DNA from: Torpedo marmorata
Taxonomy: Eukaryota
Reading direction: 5' to 3'
Length of the DNA: 64,000 bases
Assembly: GCA_977017645.1 (NCBI GenBank)
Contig: OZ360234.1
Coordinates: 35,092,001-35,156,000 of the forward strand
A program made the position numbers and the translations under genes. How positions within the stretch are numbered: the first letter of the stretch is position 1; each line of letters starts with the position of its first letter. Under the pieces are notes generated by a model. The model was given only the letters and a program-made list of their open reading frames with translations. It was not told the origin of the DNA and searched no databases. Shown piece by piece: positions 2,372-61,635 of the stretch.

Positions 2372-3606
2372 TAATTTCAAAAGTTGCATTATGCAACTAA
2401 AATGTGGTAAACGGCTTTCTGTTTAATTTGTTCTTAAACTATATTGTTAAGAATAGCAGCAAGAGTGTAACCTTCATCAAATGCTGAGTCATGGGCAAGT
2501 TAACCCATTGCGTGAATTTATGTCAAAATTGGTGCATTGCCTGCAATGCAGTGATTTGGTTTTCTTGTACCTGATCTTATTCCTGTCATTGTCCGATGGT
2601 CAGCTTTATCTAATATTGATAAGTAATTGTTGCTTTTTGTTTTACAAATGCTCTTCATCACGCTGTTTCCATGTATATGCTTCTCTCCCTTCTCTATCCA
2701 TCATGGTCTCCATCATAGAAAAGTTATTCTATGGTGGGGAGGATTTTCTTCCAATTAAAATTTGGACTTATTTGAAGTACAGGGTTGTCACTGCAGCCTT
2801 CTGTTTTCCTAGGTATTCACATTTCTATGTCGGGGTTTGATGCAATCAATCACTATACTTTCCACAGTGCATCTGCAGTTGTGTAATGGGTTTGGTTTTA
2901 TGAAACTCCAGACAAAAGTAACCCTTGTTTTGTGGTTACTTTAAAATGACACAGATCAAAGAAGAAAAACCTGCCTGAAGTATGTTGCTTGCAAGTTGAC
3001 TGCTAGCCTTTGGGAGGTGTTTCTGGGTATTCTCTGAAGCAGTCCCTTAAAATCAACAAGGACTCAGTTCCACTTCTGTGGGTTGTTCAATGACTGTTAA
3101 GGTCTCTGTGATGAACTTGCAGTGATTGGAGCAGAAAGTGTCTGACCGGGTGGGTGTGTAGTTTCAGAGATGTATCCTCTTTTTGGCTTGGCCTTTGTGC
3201 TTCCCATTGAGTGGACTTGGTTCTCGATACCATCCTGAATGCAACTCGTCTCTGTTTAATTCCCTGGAATAGCTGCTGATGGGCACATTTCTTTAAGGAG
3301 ATGTCACTTAGTCATCTCGCAACAGCAAAGCTCTCAGCAGAGTCTATTTTGAGGAGTTGGTGTTGGGCACGTGGGCAACGTGGCCCACAAAGGGAAAGCA
3401 GTCATTAGAGCTCTGGGGAAGTTGGCATCAGAGAATACCCTCATTACTTGTGCTCCCTGTAGATTTTTCCAGGATTGTACTTGTGGTACATTTTCAATGG
3501 TGTAGTTTTGTATACTCTTCTAATGTCCCAATGCATGTCTGGCAATGTGTTCATATAGATAGCTTGATGCAAAATTAATCTGTTTTCAAATTTTTTCTCT
3601 TTCCAG

Positions 3607-4624: not shown

Positions 4625-5404
4625 GTAAGTTCTACACTGAGCACGAACAATAGCTGAAGTTTATACATCTGAGCCACTGTTCAACTTTGTAAGGTCCTTG
4701 ATGTTAGTGGGGGAAAGTCAGGAATTCTCCTTTACCTTGAATATTGCAACCACAACTGAACAATAACTATTTCTTCATTTTCCCATCCTCGCAGCTTTAG
4801 TTTTAAGTTCATATCCATCTTCAGAGCTGTGTTTGGTCTCTTTATTAAATTTCTGCTATTGTACTTAAACTCTCATCAGAATAACTAGCAATCTCCCCAG
4901 ATTCATTGCAGCAAAAATAATCTCTTTCCCCTATAATGTGTCTGCAGACTTTGAAACCATTCCATCCACTGTTCTCTTTTTGTGCCTCCACTATCATGCA
5001 GGCAGGTGAGACTAGAATTGCTTGGTATTGTTTTTCTCTAGCTAGTCTTTGTCATGGAATGACAAGCAATGTCTTCACTTTCTGTACTGATACCCATTAA
5101 CTTCAGTCCCTTACTAGAATCTATTGTTTCCCTTCTATTCCTCATTAGTAATGTTATTTTGATGTCCCACGTTTCTTGACCACCATTTTTTTTATTCAAC
5201 TTATCATAGGTAATTTGAAATTTTCTCATCCTAAACATTGGAAAAATCTTAGTTTAAAGTATACAAAAATTGAGCCACATTTTTTATAATCGGGGCATCA
5301 TAGTTAACCTACGGTTCTCAAACTTCATTCTTTTTGGTATATTGAAGGCACTGTAGAAATGGGAATTGTTATTAATTGACTATTGAAAAATGAGTGAATA
5401 TTAG

Positions 5405-5821: not shown

Positions 5822-5886
5822 GCAAAGAGTATGTGGGAATTGTTCGGCTGCACAATGCTATTGAAAGTGAACTGGAGTTTAGCCGG
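5822..5886 (+). CDS. DKC1: Dyskerin exon 6 (KEYVGIVRLHNAIESELEFSR)
   Basis: 65 nt, ag/gtgagt. Confidence 0.95.
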
Positions 5887-6183: not shown

Positions 6184-6413
6184 GTGAAATGATGAATACG
6201 TTTATCCATTCGCTGAGAAATGCAAGCAACTTACTTCACTACACGCTGATCCCTGTTAGAGATTTGGTGTGAATTACGCCTATCTTGTGCCATATCTTGG
6301 CGTTCTGCTGAGATGTTGGTGCCTGTTTAGGTGTATGTGAATGTGAGGTGGTTTGTCAGGGTTGGGAACATTTTGTGCTCCCACTCTTAAAGATGAAGGA
6401 TGCATCTGATCAC
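6184..6413 (+). ncRNA. SNORD17: Long box C/D snoRNA, SNORD17 (HBI-43) homolog, DKC1 intron 6
   Basis: C box ATGATGA 6189-6195, guide cgtttatccattcg before D' CTGA, D box CTGA 6406-6409, 9-bp flanking stem tgtacgtga/tcacgtaca; guide pairs with 28S GAAUGGAUGAACG; termini match recalled human SNORD17. Confidence 0.85.
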
Positions 6414-7070: not shown

Positions 7071-7197
7071 GGGTTGGAGATGCTGACAGGAGCATTATTC
7101 CAACGGCCTCCCTTGATTGCTGCTGTTAAAAGGCAGTTAAGAGTCCGGACCATCTATGAGAGTAAACTGATTGAATATGATCCAGAGAGGCGTTTGG
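7071..7197 (+). CDS. DKC1: Dyskerin exon 7 ([42 protein letters not shown])
   Basis: 127 nt, ag/gtgagt. Confidence 0.96.
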
Positions 7198-8600: not shown

Positions 8601-9210
8601 TTCTCATCAACTCCCAGAGTTTGCTACTTGTCTATGTCCTATCAATTTATATTGACCAATAAATCTATCAACCAATGAATTGGGGAGGAAATTGGAATGC
8701 CTCAGGAAACCCATGTGGTCACAGAGAGCATGCAAACACACAGGCAGTACCTGTGGTTTGGATTGAACCTCGTTTGCTGGAAATGTGAGCAGCAGTTCTA
8801 TGCAACGCCGTCGGTTTGAAAAGATTGGAGAGGTGGAAAGAGGTGAGGGCATCGTGGTTTGAAAAGAATTTGAAACTGGAGTTGTAACTCGGATGATGGG
8901 TGTTTTTTAGTGTCTCTCCAAAGGTGTAGATCTTTCCATTAAGCAGAATGGCATTGGTTACTTGGTGAGAGGTTGAAAAGATTCGTGAATGGGTTAGTAA
9001 AAGTGAAGATACAAGCAATATGGTTTGGGATGAGGTTAAATTTGTCGACTGGTAAAAATATGGGTATAGATGGGTCTAATGGTAACAAAGATGACTTAAG
9101 TGTATCGGTACAATGGTTTAGTAACTGAAAGGTCTTGGAGGGACAAGTAGAATTATATTGCAAAGTTGAGTTGTTAAAACTGAGTTGCAAAAGGTTTGAG
9201 TTGCATTCTG

Positions 9211-9285
9211 GCCAAATGATGTTAAATAAATGAATTGAGCATGCTGTGCCAAGATGACTTGCATCTATCACCCTTGACTGATGGC
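9211..9285 (+). ncRNA. Box C/D snoRNA of the orphan U83/U84 (SNORD117/SNORD84) family, DKC1 intron 7
   Basis: gcca/tggc terminal stem, variant C box ATGATGT 9216-9222, internal gatga, antisense element ATCTATCACCCTTGA directly before D box CTGA 9278-9281, matching recalled human U84. Confidence 0.85.
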
Positions 9286-9961
9286 GAATGCAGCTTGTTT
9301 AGTTTATAATGAATGTTTACACGTGGAGATTTTAAGCAGCCATAAGGTACTGGGTTTTGATTATAGGCATCTCCGCTTGTTTCCTTTTGTAGATGCTGAT
9401 GGAGCAAATGTAACCAAGTTGTCATATAGTGAAATCTCATTTCACAGATCACCAGGTTCCACGAAACATTAGTAAATATAGGTCTTGCCTACACTTTCTG
9501 ATCAATGCTATCCTGTTTCCAGGAGTGGTCCTGCCAAAATCTTGTACTGTTGCAGCAATACTTCTTTACCTTTTGTACTTCATTCACCTTTACAAAAAAA
9601 TGTCAATATGCACTAATTGCTGTACCTGCATTTTTGCTTCATTAGCATTTAAGTCTGTTTTGCTATTCTGTCAAACGCAATGATTAACTTAATTCTCTAT
9701 TATACCATGCCTTTGCATTCCCCTTCATCTTATTTTCAGTGAATTTGGATGCAACACAATCAAATGAAAAGACAACGTCCTAAATATAAATCACAAGTAG
9801 CTGATCTTGTTTAAAATTTGCCAATCCAAATATGACAGTTCCACTCTTTTCTCACTAATTTATTTCATAACATACAATCTTTTTGTGTGGTACTTTTCAT
9901 TTTGATGTATTTAAGGCACATGTTTTCTGTAATGTCTAACCAGTATTGTATCTGCATTTAG

Positions 9962-10092
9962 GAGTTTTTTGGGTGAGTTGCGAAGCAGGGACGTACATCC
10001 GAACACTGTGTGTACATATTGGCTTGTTGCTTGGAGTAGGTGGTCAGATGCAGGAGCTAAGAAGGATACGGTCAGGAGTGAATGGAGAGAAG
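9962..10092 (+). CDS. DKC1: Dyskerin exon 8 ([43 protein letters not shown])
   Basis: 131 nt, ag/gt. Confidence 0.96.
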
Positions 10093-10194
10093 GTAGGAGT
10101 AATCATTAATTGTTTTTAAATTACGATATAAATATTATGAAAACCAAATCATACCCAGATGGTTTATGGGTGATGGTCAAATGTTTCTGGTTTG

Positions 10195-10332
10195 TCCAAA
10201 GTGTTGAGTTCAGTGCAGGTTGCTTTCTCCTGCCCTGGTAATTAAACTTTGGGAAAGTGAATGGCAAGGAGCTTTTGCACATGGTGGCCATGTTTGTGTG
10301 TGCGCCCACCAGAAGGCTTCAGGCTGACAGTT
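10195..10332 (+). ncRNA. SNORA36: H/ACA snoRNA SNORA36 (ACA36), DKC1 intron 8
   Basis: 5' hairpin tccaaagtgttgagttcag...taattaaactttggga; pocket GUGUUGAGU + AAUUAA is complementary to 18S UUAAUU(U)GACUCAACAC; second hairpin; ACA at 10327-10329; same intron as human SNORA36A. No canonical H box seen. Confidence 0.9.
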
Positions 10333-11449: not shown

Positions 11450-11533
11450 TGAAATTGTCTTGATATTTGGGATAATTTGGATGTCACGAAATCTAGTTGA
11501 TGTATTTGGGAAATTGCTTTCATTGACTTAGAC

Positions 11534-12090
11534 TAGGGGTCTCCAAAGTGGTCGATATCGACCTCCAGGGGTCGATAGGACTATCCAAGGGGTCAAAAAA
11601 TGCCAGGGGGTCGATTGAATTTTTGAGGTCGAAAGAATTGTAGAGCCCGATGCTCTTGCCCGGGAGCCCAAGGTCCCCGCTCCTGCCCAGGATCCCGAGG
11701 CGACTTCTTCGATGCGGATGGCACCACACCCGATGTTGAGAATGGAGTCACTGTCGCCGATGCTGAAGACTTGGACCCAGCTCCGTTTGGCATCTTCCCG
11801 GCCAGAAGCAAAGATTTTTTTTACTGTTATTGTAATCACTTGCTTAATTTACAGATTTGTTACTTGGCAATTGGGGTGTTGTAACAAAGTTTGAGTTGTT
11901 ACTGGGAGGCCCGGACACCATGCATATGGTATGCAGTTTCCCTCACTAATGCATATAGAAATTGCACATCTACTTAATTGTTACTATTTATTTATTTACC
12001 GGTACTTATTTTTGTACATGCCTGGGGGGTCTATTAGTGAACAAGGATTCCATGAAGGGGTCGATGGTCTAAAAAGTTTGGGGACCCCTG
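11534..12090. mobile_element. Non-autonomous hAT (Charlie-like) DNA transposon
   Basis: TIRs taggggtctccaaa / tttggggacccctg; imperfect 8-bp TSD acttagac / ttttagac; subterminal ggggtcgat repeats. Confidence 0.75.
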
Positions 12091-12234
12091 TTTTAGACTG
12101 TTACTCAAATATTTATGAGTACTGGTCTTCTTGAGCGATTATAAGCAGAAAACAATATTTCACATATTTTAAAAGAATGCTTAAAAACTTTGAGTACATT
12201 GTATCTTGATGTTTTGGTTATCTTCTGGTGGCAG

Positions 12235-12396: not shown

Positions 12397-12459
12397 GCCA
12401 CATGATGTTCTACAGTGAACATTAAAGATGACGTTTATCTATCATCCTTGACTGATGGT
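12397..12459 (+). ncRNA. Second, compact U83/U84-family box C/D snoRNA, DKC1 intron 11
   Basis: gcca/tggt stem, ATGATGT 12402-12408, gatga, ATCTATCATCCTTGA followed by CTGA 12452-12455; paralog of 9211-9285. Confidence 0.75.
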
Positions 12460-12692
12460 TAACACTTGGCTAATATATCTTGTGTCAGACGTGTTTGTGG
12501 CTAGTGTCTCCTTAAGAGCCCTTCAGGGGGTGGTGGGAGCTGTTCTCTGCATGGCAATAGTCCAAGCTAACAGACTATTATTCATTGTAAGTGTGAAAGA
12601 TGTAAAGATGGCAAAAAAGGCAGAAAGAGATTAGAAAATGTTTAATGCAATAAACAAGTTTCTTAACCAAACAGTGAAGACTCCAAGGCTGT

Positions 12693-13668: not shown

Positions 13669-13965
13669 GTAAGAATTTTACCTTGCATTTGTATGGTGTG
13701 GTTAATGTGCTTTTTGCCACTTGGTGGTGCACTTGTATCACTACTGCATAATAAATGACATTGCAGTTGAGCTTCTGTGGTGCACTTTCATCCTGTGCAG
13801 TGACGTATTTGATTCTACTAAATGACAGTGTTGTATATTGAGGTCTCCCAATGTACTCTTGTTTCAAGTTAATGACAATGCCATACTGAGCTTCCATCTC
13901 GCATGAAATGAATTGACAATTCGCTTCAATTTGTGCAAGGATTATATTTTTGAAGCTGAAAACTA

Positions 13966-14091
13966 GCAGACAGTTATCCCTTTCCAGTCTGGTGTGGCTT
14001 CAGAGGGAGTCGGTCTGCAAGAGGAATTGGAATTGCAAGATTACAGCTGTCCATATTATGGGACTGTTGGGTTCAGCACTTCCTAACATGG
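13966..14091 (+). ncRNA. SNORA56: H/ACA snoRNA SNORA56 (ACA56), DKC1 intron 12
   Basis: 5' hairpin gcagacagttatccc...gagggagtcggtctgc, H box AGAGGA 14020-14025, 3' hairpin, ACA 14086-14088; same intron as in human. Confidence 0.9.
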
Positions 14092-14233
14092 TAATACTGT
14101 AATTTGTAATGGCCACCTTCTGGCATCTGAAAACTGTCCATTTGGTATCTAGACGATGAAGGTAACTACCGGTATTTTCGTTCAAGCACCTCTTGATATG
14201 CATGCTGAATTTTTATCAATGTTTTCTTTCTAG

Positions 14234-55100: not shown

Positions 55101-55249
55101 GACTGGATTTACTTCAGAGCTATTGATGTGAATTCTGTTGAGACCATTATGTTCTCAGCATTGTTTCCTTTTTTTATTGTATATTTCACTAACCAGACAG
55201 TATGTTACCAGAGGTTAAATGGGAAAGTATTATACATTAGACCCACAAG

Positions 55250-57500
55250 ACCCACTGCTACACCAAGATAAGGAAGGCCTACCATTCTTTCCTGAGACCA
55301 CACTTTGGCAAGTCTGATCACCTGGCTGTGCTCCTTCTGCCTTCATACAGGCAGAGCCCAAAAAGAGAGGCTCCGGAGGTCAGGACAGCTAGAAGGTGGT
55401 CACAGGAGGCTGAAGAATGGTTACAGGACTTCCTCGAGTCAGCAGATTGGGCAGTGTTCAAGGACTCTGCTGAGAATCTGAACAAGTACACCGAGGCTGT
55501 CACACACTTTATCAAAACAGCTGTGGATGAGTGTGTCCCCACCAAATCATTCAGGGTTTTCCCCAACCAGAAGCCCTGGATGAACAATGAAATCCAGAAC
55601 CTGCTGAGAGCCAGATCGCAGGCATTTAAGTCTGGAGATCCAGATCAGTACAGCAGGAGCAGGTATGACCTGCGAAAAGCTATCTCCCGGGCGAAGTGGA
55701 GATTCCGGATGAAAATGGAAACAACAAGGGACACCCGACAGCTGTGGCAGGGTCTGAATTCCATAACCTGTTACAAAACCAAATCCGGTAAAGTAGCAGA
55801 CGGCAAAGCTTCTCTCCCAGAGGAACTCAACGCCTTCTACGCCCGATTTGACGAGAGTAACAGCGAAGAACCACCCCTCCGCACCCCCACGTCCCCTGAT
55901 GATCCTATCCTGTCCGTATCTGAGGATGACATGCGTGCTGCCTTCAGGAGAGTGAATCCAAGGAAAGCATCCGGCCCGGATGGAGTACCTGGCCGAGTAT
56001 TAAAGATATGTGCTGACCAACTTACCAAGGTATGCACGGATATCTTCAATATCTCACTCCAGCAGGACGTGGTACCCACCTGTTTCAAACAGGCGATTAT
56101 CATACCGGTGCCCAAGAAGAGTGTAGTAACCTGCCTTAACAACTATCGACCAGTAGCATTTACATCAACAGTGATGAAGTGTTTTGAAAGGCTGGTGTTG
56201 AAGCATATTAGCTCCTGTCTGAGCGGTGACATGGATACATTCCAGTTCACCTATCATAGCAACAGGTCTAAGGCGGATGCCATCTCACTGGCTCTACACA
56301 AAGCCCTGGAACACCTGGACAGCAAAGATGCATCCATCAGGATGTTCTTTATCGACTACAGTTCGGCATTTAACACCATCATCCCCTCAAAACTGATCAG
56401 CAAACTCCACGACTTGGGAGTTAACACCCCACTGTGTAATTGGATCATGGATTTCCTCACCTCCAGACCACAATCAGTGAAGAATGATAAGAACTTCTCC
56501 TCCGCAATCTCCATCATTACCGGAGCACCACAGGGCTGTGTTCTTAGCCCCCTGCTCTACTCACTTTACACCTACGACTGTGTAGCTCGGTACGACAATA
56601 ACTCCATCTACAAATTTGCAAATGATACCATGGTAGTGGGTTGTATAAAGGAAGGGGATGAGTCAGCATACAGGATGGAGATTGAAAACTTGGCTGAATG
56701 GTGCATCAAAAACAACCTTGCACTCAATGTCACCAAAACTAAGGAGCTGATTGTTGAAGTCAGGAAAGGAAAGCCAGAGGTATACAATCCAGTGATCATT
56801 GGGGGATCAGAGGTGGAGAGGGTGAGGAAATTTAGGTTCTTTGGAGTCACTATCTTGGAGGATCTTTCCTGGACCCAACACACCAATGGCATCGTGAAGA
56901 AAGCATGTCAATGCCTCTACTTCCTCAGGAGTTTGCGGAAGTTTGGAATGACACCAGAAACCCTGGCAAATTTCTACAAAGGTGTGGTGGAAAGTGTGCT
57001 GACCAGCTGCATCACGGTCTGGTATGGGAACACCAATACCCCTGAGCATAAAGCCATCCAAAAGGTAGTGGACACAGCCCAGGACATCACAGGCAAAACC
57101 CTCCCCACTATTGAGTACATCTACAGGGAATGCTGCCATTGGAGGGCAGCAGCTCACTGCTGCCATAAGGAAAGAGGTATAGGTGCCACAAGACTCGCAA
57201 CACCAGGTTCAGGAACAGCTGCTACCCCTCCACCATCAGACTCCTCAACAACAAACTCAATCAGAGATTCATTTAAGGACTCTTACTTGTGCACTTCATT
57301 GATTTTCTTTTGTTCTCTCTGTATTGCACAGTTTGTTTGCATTCGTTATCTGTTTAGTTCTTTTATTTGTTTACATGTTTACGCTGTGTAGAGTTTATTT
57401 TTTGCACTACCAATTAGTGGCAATACTGCAGCGCCCGCAGGAAAAATGAATCTCAGGGTTATATGTAATGTCATGTATGTACTCTGACAATAAATTTGAA
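55250..57500 (+). mobile_element. Rex1/Babar LINE, longest copy (end of EN domain plus RT; subfamily B)
   Basis: PHFGKSDH endonuclease end, 687-aa ORF 55328-57391, catalytic FADD mutated to FAND, deletion/frameshift near 57150, 3' tail. Confidence 0.93.
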
Positions 57501-58928: not shown

Positions 58929-59130
58929 AAAGGTAAAGGTAAAGGTTCCATTATTGTCACGTAATATTACATTTAGAATGTAACATGAAATTCTTTAACT
59001 TTGTCTACCATAAGGAAGATAGAGAGTCGCTACTTTGTCCAGTGCCCCTCACAGAGGTGAGGCCCCAGCGAGGAACGAACTCGCAGCCCCTGGTTTACAA
59101 GACCAGTGCTCTAACCACTAAGCTATGGAG
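58929..59130 (-). mobile_element. Short SINE: tRNA-Thr(TGT) head, Rex1-like 3' tail and (ACCTTT)3
   Basis: Minus strand reads CTCCATAGCTTAGTGGTTAGAGCACTGGTCTTGTAAACCAGGGG..GGGGCCT, then a tail resembling family C/Rex1 ends; its first two bases are displaced to 60006-60007. Confidence 0.8.
59060..59130 (-). tRNA. tRNA-Thr(TGT)-derived sequence (SINE head, disrupted acceptor stem)
   Basis: Cloverleaf with anticodon TGT at 59097-59099; no oligo-T terminator; 5' GG separated by the LTR. Confidence 0.75.
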
Positions 59131-60001: not shown

Positions 60002-60289
60002 GGAGCCACGTGGAAAGGCAACATTGTGGAAGATGTTAAAGCAAGAATGAGAATTTTAATTTGGTGATGTTGCTTAACTGGAAGTGAATGTAGGTAAAAG
60101 ATACAAGATGATGGAAGAATGAGAGCAGATGCGAGTTACAATGTGGGTAGCAGGGTTTTGAATGACCTCAAGTTTATAGAAAGAAGAACAAATATAACTG
60201 GCCATCAACACATTGAAATTGTCAAAACAAAAGCATGGATGAGGAGGAGATCAGGAGCTGAGAAGAGCTGTGCGCTACTGTAGGTAGGT

Positions 60290-61635
60290 AGGCTGGTGAT
60301 GAAGCACATCAGCTCCTGTCTGAGCGGTGACATGGATCCATTTCAGTTCACCTATCGCGGCAACAGGTCTACGGCGGATGCCATCTCACTGGCCCTACAC
60401 AAAGCCCTGGAACACCTGGACAGCAAAGATGCATACATCAGGATGCTCTTTATCGACTACAGTTCGGCATTTAACACCATCATCCCCTCAAAACTGATCA
60501 GCAAACTGCAAGACCTGGGAGTTAACACCCCACTGCGTAATTGGATCATGGATTTCCTCACCTCCAGACCACAATCAGTGAAGATTGGTAAGATCTTCTC
60601 CTCCACAAACTCCATCAGTACCGGAGCACCACAGGGCTGTGTTCTTAGCCCCCTGCTCTACTCACTTTACACCTACGACTGTGTAGCTCGGTATGACAAT
60701 AACACCATCTACAAATTTGCTGACGATACCACGGTAGTAGGTTGTATAAAGGAAGGGGATGAGTCAGCATACAGGATGGACATTGAAAACTTGGCTGAAT
60801 GGTGCACCAACAACAACCTTGCACTCAATGTCACCAAAACTAAGGAGCTGATTGTTGAAAGCCAGAGGTATACAATCCAGTGATCATTAGGGGATCAGAG
60901 GTGGAGAGGTTGAGCAAATTTAGGTTCTTGGGAGTCACTATCTCAGAGGATCTTTCCTGGACCCAACACACCAATGGCATCTTGAAGAAAGCAAGTCAGC
61001 ACCTCTACTTCCTCAGGAGTTTGCAGAGGTTTGGTATGACACCAGAAACCCTGGCAAATTTCTACAGATGTGTGATGGAAAATTTGCTGACCAGCTGCAT
61101 CACGGTCTGGTATGGGAACACCAATACCCCTGAGCGGAAAGCCCTCCAAAAGGTAGTGGACACAGCCCAGGACATTACTGGCAAAACCCTCCCCACTATT
61201 GAGTACATCTACGGGGAACGCTGCCGTCGGAGGGCAGCAGCAATCATCAAAGCCGCACACCACCCAGCACACGCTCTGTTCTCGCTGCTGCCATCAGGAG
61301 AGAGGTATAGGTGCCACAAGACTCGCACCACCAGGTTTAGGAACAGCTGCTACCCCTTTACCATCAGAATCCTCAACGAAAAAGTCAAATCAGAGACTCA
61401 TTTAAGGACTCTTACTCGTGCACTTTATTGATTTTTCTTTGCTCTCTCTGTATTGCACAGTTTCATTTTCAGTTTCATTCGTTACCTGTTAGCAGTTCTT
61501 TTGATTGTTTACATGTTTTCGCTGTATACAGTTTACTTTTTGCACTACCAATTAGTGGCAATTCTGCTGTGCCCGCAGGAAAAAGAATCTCAGGGTTGTT
61601 TGTGACGTCATGTATGTACTCTGATAATAAATCTT
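60290..61635 (+). mobile_element. Rex1/Babar LINE, 5'-truncated (subfamily B)
   Basis: ORFs 60296-60883 and 60880-61431 with GAPQG and KFADD; highly similar to 56190-57500. Confidence 0.92.

What the first reader, a model, noticed from the sequence alone, without database searches (positions are those of the whole stretch)
9211..9285. Orphan U83/U84-family C/D snoRNA with an invariant antisense element in DKC1 intron 7
Seen: gccaaATGATGT...gatga...ATCTATCACCCTTGA-CTGA-tggc. Known: human U83/U84 (SNORD117/SNORD84) lie in DDX39B/BAT1 and were described as lacking rRNA complementarity; the element here matches my recollection of U84. Inference: conservation of the guide from cartilaginous fish to human despite a host change implies a conserved, unidentified target resembling 5'-UCAAGGGUGAUAGAU-3', with a G at the D+5 position.
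Basis: partly seen in the sequence, partly recalled or inferred. Interest (0 to 1): 0.75.

Follow-up and report, generated by a model that had tools for sequence, protein, structure and literature searches.

The report
Known snoRNA, candidate rRNA acetylation guide
An intron of the dyskerin gene carries a small nucleolar RNA of a known vertebrate family (U83/U84) whose conserved guide likely grips 18S ribosomal RNA just ahead of an acetylated base, which makes it a testable, unproven candidate for the acetylation guide known in yeast but never found in vertebrates.

Summary
Real: 9211-9286 is an Rfam RF00137 (U83/U84 = SNORD117/SNORD84) box C/D snoRNA (61.9 bits, cut-off 35) in DKC1 intron 7; a second copy lies in intron 11. 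The guide is not invariant (D+4 U/A, D+7 C/U). DKC1 as host is implied by published Xenopus coordinates. The family is not strictly orphan: chimeric eCLIP places mouse and human SNORD117 on 18S rRNA about 1295-1352 in five data sets. The guide pairs there (18S 1317-1328, 11 of 12 positions, several G-U), the best site for this copy in 5.4 kb of rRNA; D+5 falls on G1320, unmethylated in published maps. The pairing is weak (no better than shuffled guides), and copy 2 fits worse. Its core covers -16 to -9 from ac4C1337, exactly the window that yeast snR4 uses to guide the same acetylation, whose vertebrate guide is unknown. Best reading: a non-methylating helper on pre-18S (0.5). Boldest: the missing snR4 counterpart (0.2). 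A non-rRNA methylation target stays possible (0.3). A double knockout plus ac4C sequencing decides.

The parts
9211..9285 (+). U83/U84-family (SNORD117/SNORD84, RF00137) box C/D snoRNA, copy 1, DKC1 intron 7
   Evidence: Rfam 61.9 bits, E 2.9e-10; 675 bases before the 3' splice site
9211..9215 (+). 5' leader GCCAA: terminal stem with UGGC; could also pair weakly with 18S +9 to +13 from the acetylated C
   Evidence: fold; pairing -4.6 kcal/mol, matched by 49 of 1024 pentamers and in 41 of 300 random 18S windows, so not significant
9216..9222 (+). box C (AUGAUGU)
   Evidence: sequence, Rfam alignment
9235..9258 (+). probable box D' (UUGA, 9235-9238), short hairpin and box C' (AGAUGAC, 9252-9258); the stretch before D' is not conserved between copies
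   Evidence: read from the Rfam alignment and the two-copy alignment; assignment inferred
9263..9277 (+). conserved D-box antisense element; D+2 to D+13 (9276-9265) pairs in silico with 18S 1317-1328, stable core D+5 to D+13
   Evidence: human and Xenopus 18S numbering
9260..9263 (+). copy-1-specific extension UGCA that pairs with 18S 1329-1332 after one bulged U
   Evidence: RNAduplex -20.3 kcal/mol for the 18-base guide; weaker or absent in copy 2
9278..9281 (+). box D (CUGA)
   Evidence: sequence
9198..9296 (+). flanking intron arms that fold into a long external stem around the snoRNA
   Evidence: z -1.81, 12 of 200 shuffles as stable; copy 2 has a stem of other sequence (z -2.0, 10 of 200)
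12397..12459 (+). second U83/U84-family copy, DKC1 intron 11; box C 12402-12408, guide 12437-12451 (C to U at D+7), box D 12452-12455; about 12 bases shorter
   Evidence: Rfam 48.9 bits, E 8.7e-07
7071..7197 (+). DKC1 exon 7 (5' flank exon)
   Evidence: open frame across 11 exons
9962..10092 (+). DKC1 exon 8 (3' flank exon)
   Evidence: spliced joints to exons 9, 10, 11 seen in run X2
6184..6413 (+). SNORD17-family snoRNA, intron 6 (same host cluster)
   Evidence: Rfam 86.5 bits; same cluster in Xenopus
10194..10325 (+). SNORA36, intron 8 (3' end estimated)
   Evidence: Rfam 48.9 bits for 10194-10282
13964..14095 (+). SNORA56-like, intron 12 (3' end estimated)
   Evidence: Rfam 54.1 bits, E 3.6e-08, below its cut-off of 80

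Best explanation
This is an intron-encoded U83/U84-family box C/D snoRNA whose conserved D-box element likely pairs, loosely and likely without methylating, with 18S rRNA nucleotides 1317-1328 just 5' of the acetylated C1337. Shown: family, boxes, host intron, two copies. Shown by others for the mammalian relative SNORD117: it sits in fibrillarin/NOP56/NOP58 particles ligated to this part of 18S. Computed: the pairing register, with D+5 on G1320. Inferred: it is cut out of the spliced DKC1 intron, assembles the C/D core, and holds this strand of pre-18S open for a short time, in competition with the guides for Um1326 and Gm1328, as a folding or modification helper; G-U pairs and the U-U mismatch at D+4 would keep fibrillarin from methylating G1320. 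The most specific job that fits is the one yeast snR4 does at the same nucleotides, presenting C1337 to NAT10; that last step is untested (about 0.2).
For: Chimeric eCLIP table S1 (PMC11863803): Snord117 peaks on mouse 45S 5302-5359 (FBL, 33% of its chimeras) and 5309-5356 (NOP56), and human 45S 4938-5006, 4940-4997, 4948-5003 (FBL, NOP58, NOP56): 5 of its 6 rows. They coincide with the SNORD33 peaks (human 4938-5003), i.e. around Um1326. The copy-1 guide pairs at 11 of 12 positions with 18S 1317-1328 (numbering). This site ranks first for copy 1 in 5 of 5 rRNA sets and at 3 of 3 guide lengths, whereas shuffled guides have their best site inside the chimera window in 0 to 5 of 200 and 7 of 150. 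The only lower-case position of the Rfam consensus within D+1 to D+15 is D+4, the one mismatch in the duplex, and the mammalian variant (A) repairs it (-17.3 against -14.7 kcal/mol); the C to U change at D+7 keeps a G-U pair. G1320 carries no methyl mark in the human and Xenopus maps, and Snord117 is not among the new sites with high RiboMeth score.
Against: The duplex is no stronger than the best site of shuffled guides: 69 of 150 as good for copy 1, 9 of 150 for the D+4 A variant; 40 to 103 of 200 with bulges allowed. For copy 2 the site is not the best at any of 3 lengths and 167 to 200 of 200 shuffles do as well. Snord84, whose guide equals copy 1, has no significant peak in the same table (0 rows). 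U at D+3, D+10 and D+12 never changes to C in the four sequences seen although that would strengthen 18S pairing, and D+14 does not pair. The scan used fungal and other non-vertebrate rRNA (target stretch equal to the Xenopus form; LSU incomplete, no vertebrate expansion segments). Recalled, not read (one search found no copy): Jady and Kiss 2000 reported that U83/U84 do not sediment with pre-ribosomes and can methylate artificial substrates.
Confidence: 0.5

Rival explanations
1. One reading: an ordinary 2'-O-methylation guide for a conserved RNA other than rRNA, matching the element by Watson-Crick pairs, with the 18S chimeras a side contact.
For: The element abuts box D in the canonical guide position; U at D+3, D+10, D+12, D+14 and A at D+15 are unchanged in four sequences and upper case in Rfam, and the one change seen at a C is C to U; the 18S duplex is not exceptional; Snord84 has no rRNA peak. 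The original paper's title says they lack rRNA complementarity (reference list).
Against: U83 and U84 differ at D+4, next to the methylated position, so one perfect target cannot suit both. No Snord117 peak on snRNA or mRNA passed the thresholds (6 of 6 rows are rRNA). No target was found here: none in the window besides the two genes themselves, none in paper texts. Imperfect fits in U6, U6atac, U1 and 7SK are recalled only and untested.
Confidence: 0.3
2. A canonical but weak rRNA methylation guide that puts a partial or tissue-limited methyl group on 18S G1320.
For: D+5 falls on G1320 with 12 contiguous pairs for the D+4 A variant; chimeras with fibrillarin at the site.
Against: No Gm1320 in the human or Xenopus maps; not among the highly methylated new sites; both copies here have a U-U mismatch at D+4.
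Confidence: 0.07
3. The conserved element is not an antisense guide in trans: it is a protein-binding or structural motif, or the RNA acts on splicing of its host, and the 18S contact is incidental to a G-rich, exposed stretch.
For: SNORD84 is listed as pairing with its own host intron near an alternative exon (PMC10324135); 15 of 150 shuffles of the D+4 A guide land in the same 18S window; an earlier AI note on a fungal RNA found that pairing near this site held only in some lineages.
Against: The element is kept in different introns and in two host genes, which a cis role in one intron does not explain; its place before box D is that of a guide.
Confidence: 0.13

Closest known systems
U83/U84 = SNORD117/SNORD84 (Rfam RF00137, named SNORD83; distinct from SNORD83A/B in RPL3, listed with target 18S-468 in PMC4696412)
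   Same: Boxes, GCCA/UGGC ends, size 76, element identical to mouse Snord84 over the last 23 bases and 5' 12 bases identical to mouse Snord117; two copies per host gene.
   Different: Host is DKC1 (introns 7 and 11), not DDX39B; middle part diverged; copy 2 is shorter with U at D+7.
Xenopus tropicalis SNORD117 (PMC6984369 supplement) and zebrafish dkc1 snoRNAs (PMC11880993 supplement)
   Same: Xenopus SNORD117 chr8:17808094 lies with SNORA36, SNORD17 and SNORA56 within 2.1 kb, the same four families as here; zebrafish dkc1 holds four snoRNAs of 76-77 bases and no row names ddx39.
   Different: Xenopus lists one copy, called orphan; order of SNORD17 and SNORA36 is reversed; the zebrafish table does not name the family, so that link is inferred from size.
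Yeast snR4 (guide for Kre33-made ac4C1280, helix 34; PMC5464676)
   Same: GS2 pairs 18S 1264-1271, i.e. -16 to -9 from the acetylated C, overlapping the sites of snR55 and snR40; D+6 to D+13 here covers -16 to -9, overlapping the SNORD33 peak.
   Different: snR4 is 155-242 bases with GS2 in a loop after box C' and a pseudoknot, and a 5' AACUA element pairing at +6 to +10 that is essential; this RNA is 76 bases, its element abuts box D and it has no AACUA. No homology is claimed.
SNORD13/snR45 and Dipteran Or-CD1 (helix 45 acetylation guides; PMC9226516)
   Same: Or-CD1 guides acetylation with one antisense element and looks like an ordinary intronic SNORD; the authors ask whether other orphan intronic SNORDs do so.
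   Different: Other site (helix 45), capped independent transcripts, about 110 bases; function proven by knockout.

Membership tests
RF00137 U83/U84 box C/D snoRNA | Covariance-model score above the curated cut-off over the full model | tested here: met
   61.9 and 48.9 bits against 35, model 1-78
RF00137 U83/U84 box C/D snoRNA | Boxes C and D with terminal stem, conserved element before box D | tested here: met
   element equals mouse Snord84
RF00137 U83/U84 box C/D snoRNA | Sense orientation inside an intron of an expressed host | tested here: met
   exon map; spliced joints of exons 8 to 11 in run X2 of a related organism
RF00137 U83/U84 box C/D snoRNA | Mature RNA accumulates and binds the C/D core proteins in this species | not testable with these tools
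   no run on record as RNA holds the stretch; contigs only; mammalian SNORD117 is captured with FBL, NOP56, NOP58
Canonical rRNA 2'-O-methylation guide | 10 or more near-perfect base pairs next to box D | tested here: inconclusive
   11 of 12 pairs, 3 to 4 of them G-U, mismatch at D+4; energy no better than shuffles
Canonical rRNA 2'-O-methylation guide | Methyl group on the nucleotide paired with D+5 | tested here: not met
   G1320 unmarked in the human and Xenopus maps; no map for this species
snR4/SNORD13-type acetylation guide | Antisense element pairing 5' of the acetylated C (snR4: -16 to -9) | tested here: met
   D+6 to D+13 pairs at -16 to -9 in both copies; computed pairing, backed by SNORD117 chimeras
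snR4/SNORD13-type acetylation guide | 5' element pairing 3' of the acetylated C | tested here: inconclusive
   GCCAA +9 to +13 and GCCAC +12 to +15; 49 and 39 of 1024 pentamers, 41 and 52 of 300 random windows as good; Dipteran Or-CD1 works without one
snR4/SNORD13-type acetylation guide | Element held in a loop after box C' with a pseudoknot, away from box D | tested here: not met
   element abuts box D in a 76-base RNA against the snR4 model
snR4/SNORD13-type acetylation guide | Loss of the RNA removes ac4C; association with NAT10/Kre33 | not testable with these tools
   needs knockout and ac4C sequencing; no such data found

The most novel reading that the evidence does not exclude
U83/U84 (SNORD117 and SNORD84, redundant) are the missing vertebrate counterpart of yeast snR4: a 76-base intronic C/D RNA that uses its D-box element, not to methylate, but to pin 18S 1321-1328 and present C1337 of helix 34 to NAT10 for acetylation. 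It would be an acetylation guide built like an ordinary methylation guide and reached by convergence.
Probability: 0.2. Interest if true: 0.8.

Novelty: new member of a known kind. Interest (0 to 1): 0.5.

Why it matters
The gene itself is an ordinary member of a curated family, and its DKC1 home is implied by published frog coordinates. What matters is the link made here between two open questions: U83/U84 have lacked a function since 2000, and the guide for 18S ac4C1337 is stated as unknown in humans (PMC9670809; PMC9226516). The element's computed footprint equals that of yeast snR4, and published chimeras put SNORD117 there. Two redundant paralogues in one host gene would explain why a single-gene loss could have missed it. 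If true it completes the vertebrate rRNA acetylation machinery and shows that a guide beside box D can serve NAT10; if false, the same knockout points to the real target.

Tried and rejected
No whole genome is held for this window, so no search for targets, rDNA, snRNAs or further copies in this species. Homologue scans: viral contigs gave 4 matches and metagenome contigs 65; none shows the family's ends by eye and 0 of the 18 loci scanned (2 viral, 16 metagenome) hit RF00137: taken as chance. No vertebrate 18S came from genome contigs (0; 40 eukaryote contaminants); vertebrate numbering comes from a supplement. U6 and U6atac were not found in viral contigs, so snRNA targets are untested. No RNA holder listed; contigs of 4 runs cover both copies but the table of differences was cut (40 of 407 rows shown), so conservation against flanks is not measured; for run X1, 0 of 19 listed changes in 8900-10233 fall in the snoRNA, about 1 expected. 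A perfect antisense match is absent from the window and from paper texts (2 unrelated papers). A 5' second guide was tested and is not significant. A conserved D' guide was rejected: the two copies differ there. Jady and Kiss 2000 is not held. The Jorjani supplement gave only name lists, 2 files unsearched; Gumienny, the Xenopus main text and the 2026 NAT10 paper do not name these RNAs in the passages searched. PMC12645875 (human CLASH) was seen only as a listing; its supplements could bear on the target.

Full report
Observation. The quoted letters are in the window. Box C (AUGAUGU) is at 9216-9222, the element AUCUAUCACCCUUGA at 9263-9277 and box D at 9278-9281. A scan of the whole window against Rfam gave 5 matches; RF00137 (named SNORD83, the U83/U84 family) covers 9211-9286 with 61.9 bits against a cut-off of 35. 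The two copies share the 5' end with box C, AAGAUGAC and the element with box D, and little else. Each is framed by a long stem of its own flanking sequence (12 and 10 of 200 shuffles as stable).

Host. Eleven exons between 1894 and 13668 join into one open frame of 408 residues, with dyskerin domains and a best match to human DKC1. Copy 1 is in intron 7 and copy 2 in intron 11, counting one exon upstream of the window (human numbering, recalled). Joints of exons 8 to 11 appear in a run of a related organism. SNORD17, SNORA36 and a SNORA56-like RNA lie in introns 6, 8 and 12. In Xenopus, SNORA36, SNORD17, SNORD117 and SNORA56 lie within 2.1 kb on chr8 (PMC6984369, supplement rows); zebrafish dkc1 holds four unnamed snoRNAs of 76-77 bases and no row names ddx39 (PMC11880993, supplement rows). 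Human SNORD117 and SNORD84 are in DDX39B (PMC4696412, passage), and U83 overlaps a conserved element in BAT1 intron 5 in a comparison with marsupials (PMC1654159, passage). So DKC1 is likely the older host and the move happened on the way to mammals (inference).

The element is conserved but not invariant. Mouse Snord84 has the copy-1 element; mouse Snord117 has A at D+4 (PMC11863803, supplement rows); copy 2 has U at D+7. In the Rfam consensus D+4 is the only lower-case letter of D+1 to D+15.

A partner is on record. The chimeric eCLIP study names Snord117 among orphans with a high-confidence rRNA contact (section 7 read in the preprint; passages). Of its 6 table rows, 5 are one 18S site in mouse (FBL, NOP56) and human (FBL, NOP56, NOP58), and 1 is a 28S site seen with mouse NOP56 only. 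The 18S peaks coincide with those of SNORD33; with the usual offsets (recalled, and in line with the Snord13 peak ending at 5875) they span about 18S 1295-1352. Snord84 has no row. The human rows are labelled 'predicted', so a database already held a prediction there; I did not see it.

Pairing. Using rRNA from contaminant contigs (L083 equals the Xenopus sequence over the site) and the human and Xenopus maps (PMC6984369, supplement part 2), D+2 to D+13 pairs with 18S 1317-1328 at 11 of 12 positions, with a U-U mismatch at D+4 and three G-U pairs against human (four against the Xenopus form). D+5 faces G1320, which is unmarked in both maps, while Um1326 and Gm1328 are marked. For copy 1 the site ranks first in 5 of 5 rRNA sets (second site only 0.1 kcal/mol behind in 2 of them) and at 3 of 3 guide lengths; shuffled guides put their best site in the chimera window in 0 to 5 of 200 and 7 of 150. 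Against this, the energy is ordinary: 69 of 150 shuffles find as good a site somewhere (9 of 150 for the D+4 A variant, whose shuffles land in the window in 15 of 150), and copy 2 prefers other sites at all 3 lengths, with 167 to 200 of 200 shuffles as good. The computation therefore supplies a register for the published contact; it does not prove the contact by itself. The rRNA set was non-vertebrate and lacked part of the large subunit.

The link to acetylation. Yeast snR4 guides Kre33 to C1280 through GS2, pairing 18S 1264-1271, and a 5' GS1, pairing 1286-1290; GS2 overlaps the sites of snR55 and snR40 (PMC5464676, passages, discussion and figure S3 text). That is -16 to -9 from the acetylated C. 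D+6 to D+13 of both copies covers -16 to -9 from C1337. SNORD13 loss leaves ac4C1337 intact (PMC9226516, passages and discussion), and a human snR4 counterpart is stated as not identified (PMC9670809, passage). Fly Or-CD1 guides acetylation with a single element. I found no paper that names a vertebrate helix 34 guide or ties SNORD117/84 to it in searches (open-licence library, main texts, listings partly cut; PMC12848939 and PMC13547379 read as passages). Against: the architecture differs from snR4 (76 against 155-242 bases; element beside box D; no AACUA), the 5' pentamers pair downstream only at chance level, the match of windows was noticed after the fact, and the stretch is G-rich and attracts C/U-rich guides. 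From recall, the original paper found U83/U84 outside pre-ribosomal particles and able to methylate artificial substrates; I could not read it.

Weighing. Membership of RF00137 is settled. Membership among canonical rRNA methylation guides fails on the missing Gm1320. Membership among snR4-type guides fails on architecture and is untested on function, but 'works like snR4' remains open. I put a functional, non-methylating contact with pre-18S at 0.5, of which acetylation guiding is about 0.2; a non-rRNA methylation target at 0.3, because four U residues stay fixed where 18S has G or U; partial Gm1320 at 0.07; a role without trans pairing at 0.13 (SNORD84 host-intron pairing, PMC10324135, passages). 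PMC3349704 (passage) lists both RNAs as without target.

Verdict. A new member of a known family in an already implied host, not a new kind of element. Its interest lies in one cheap experiment that would settle both the function of U83/U84 and the missing guide for ac4C1337. Interest 0.5.

Noticed in passing
window 3104-3243 (+), DKC1 intron 2: Possible unlisted box C/D RNA: UGAUGA at 3109, CUGA at 3142 and 3235, no Rfam match up to E 2. The element before 3142 pairs over 10 bases with large-subunit rRNA of L101. Zebrafish dkc1 has a 124-base 'novel' C/D snoRNA in an early intron.
   Followed up: partly
window 6184-6413 (+): SNORD17 lies in DKC1 intron 6; human SNORD17 is on chr20 while the Xenopus gene is in the same cluster as SNORA36 and SNORA56: a second snoRNA that left this host.
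   Followed up: partly
window 12397-12460 (+): Second family copy only 43 bases after the 5' splice site, about 12 bases shorter, with a D+7 change and weaker 18S fit; may be drifting or specialised.
   Followed up: yes
mouse 45S 11459-11501: A second Snord117 peak, in 28S, seen with NOP56 only; the region before box D' is not conserved in the two copies here.
   Followed up: no
window about 11530-12090: High-copy repeat inside intron 10; a contig of organism B joins 11524 to 12124 without it, so the insertion is lineage-limited.
   Followed up: partly
window 59063-59130 (-): tRNA-like sequence, 51.8 bits, anticodon loop reads UGU (Thr); ends cut short in the model, may be a pseudogene or repeat head.
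   Followed up: no
window 40018-40473 (-): Frame with an SH3-like exon on the opposite strand; looks like MPP1, the tail-to-tail neighbour of human DKC1 (name and synteny recalled).
   Followed up: no
window 37018-38565, 55241-57391, 60284-61431 (+); about 33200-34150: LINE-type reverse transcriptase frames; an assembly gap (931 N in the window) beside a simple repeat.
   Followed up: no
L001 1779-2690, L002 1844-2090; L072-L111: Eukaryotic 18S sequence inside two viral contigs and in at least 40 contigs filed under prokaryote genomes: contamination or mis-binning.
   Followed up: no
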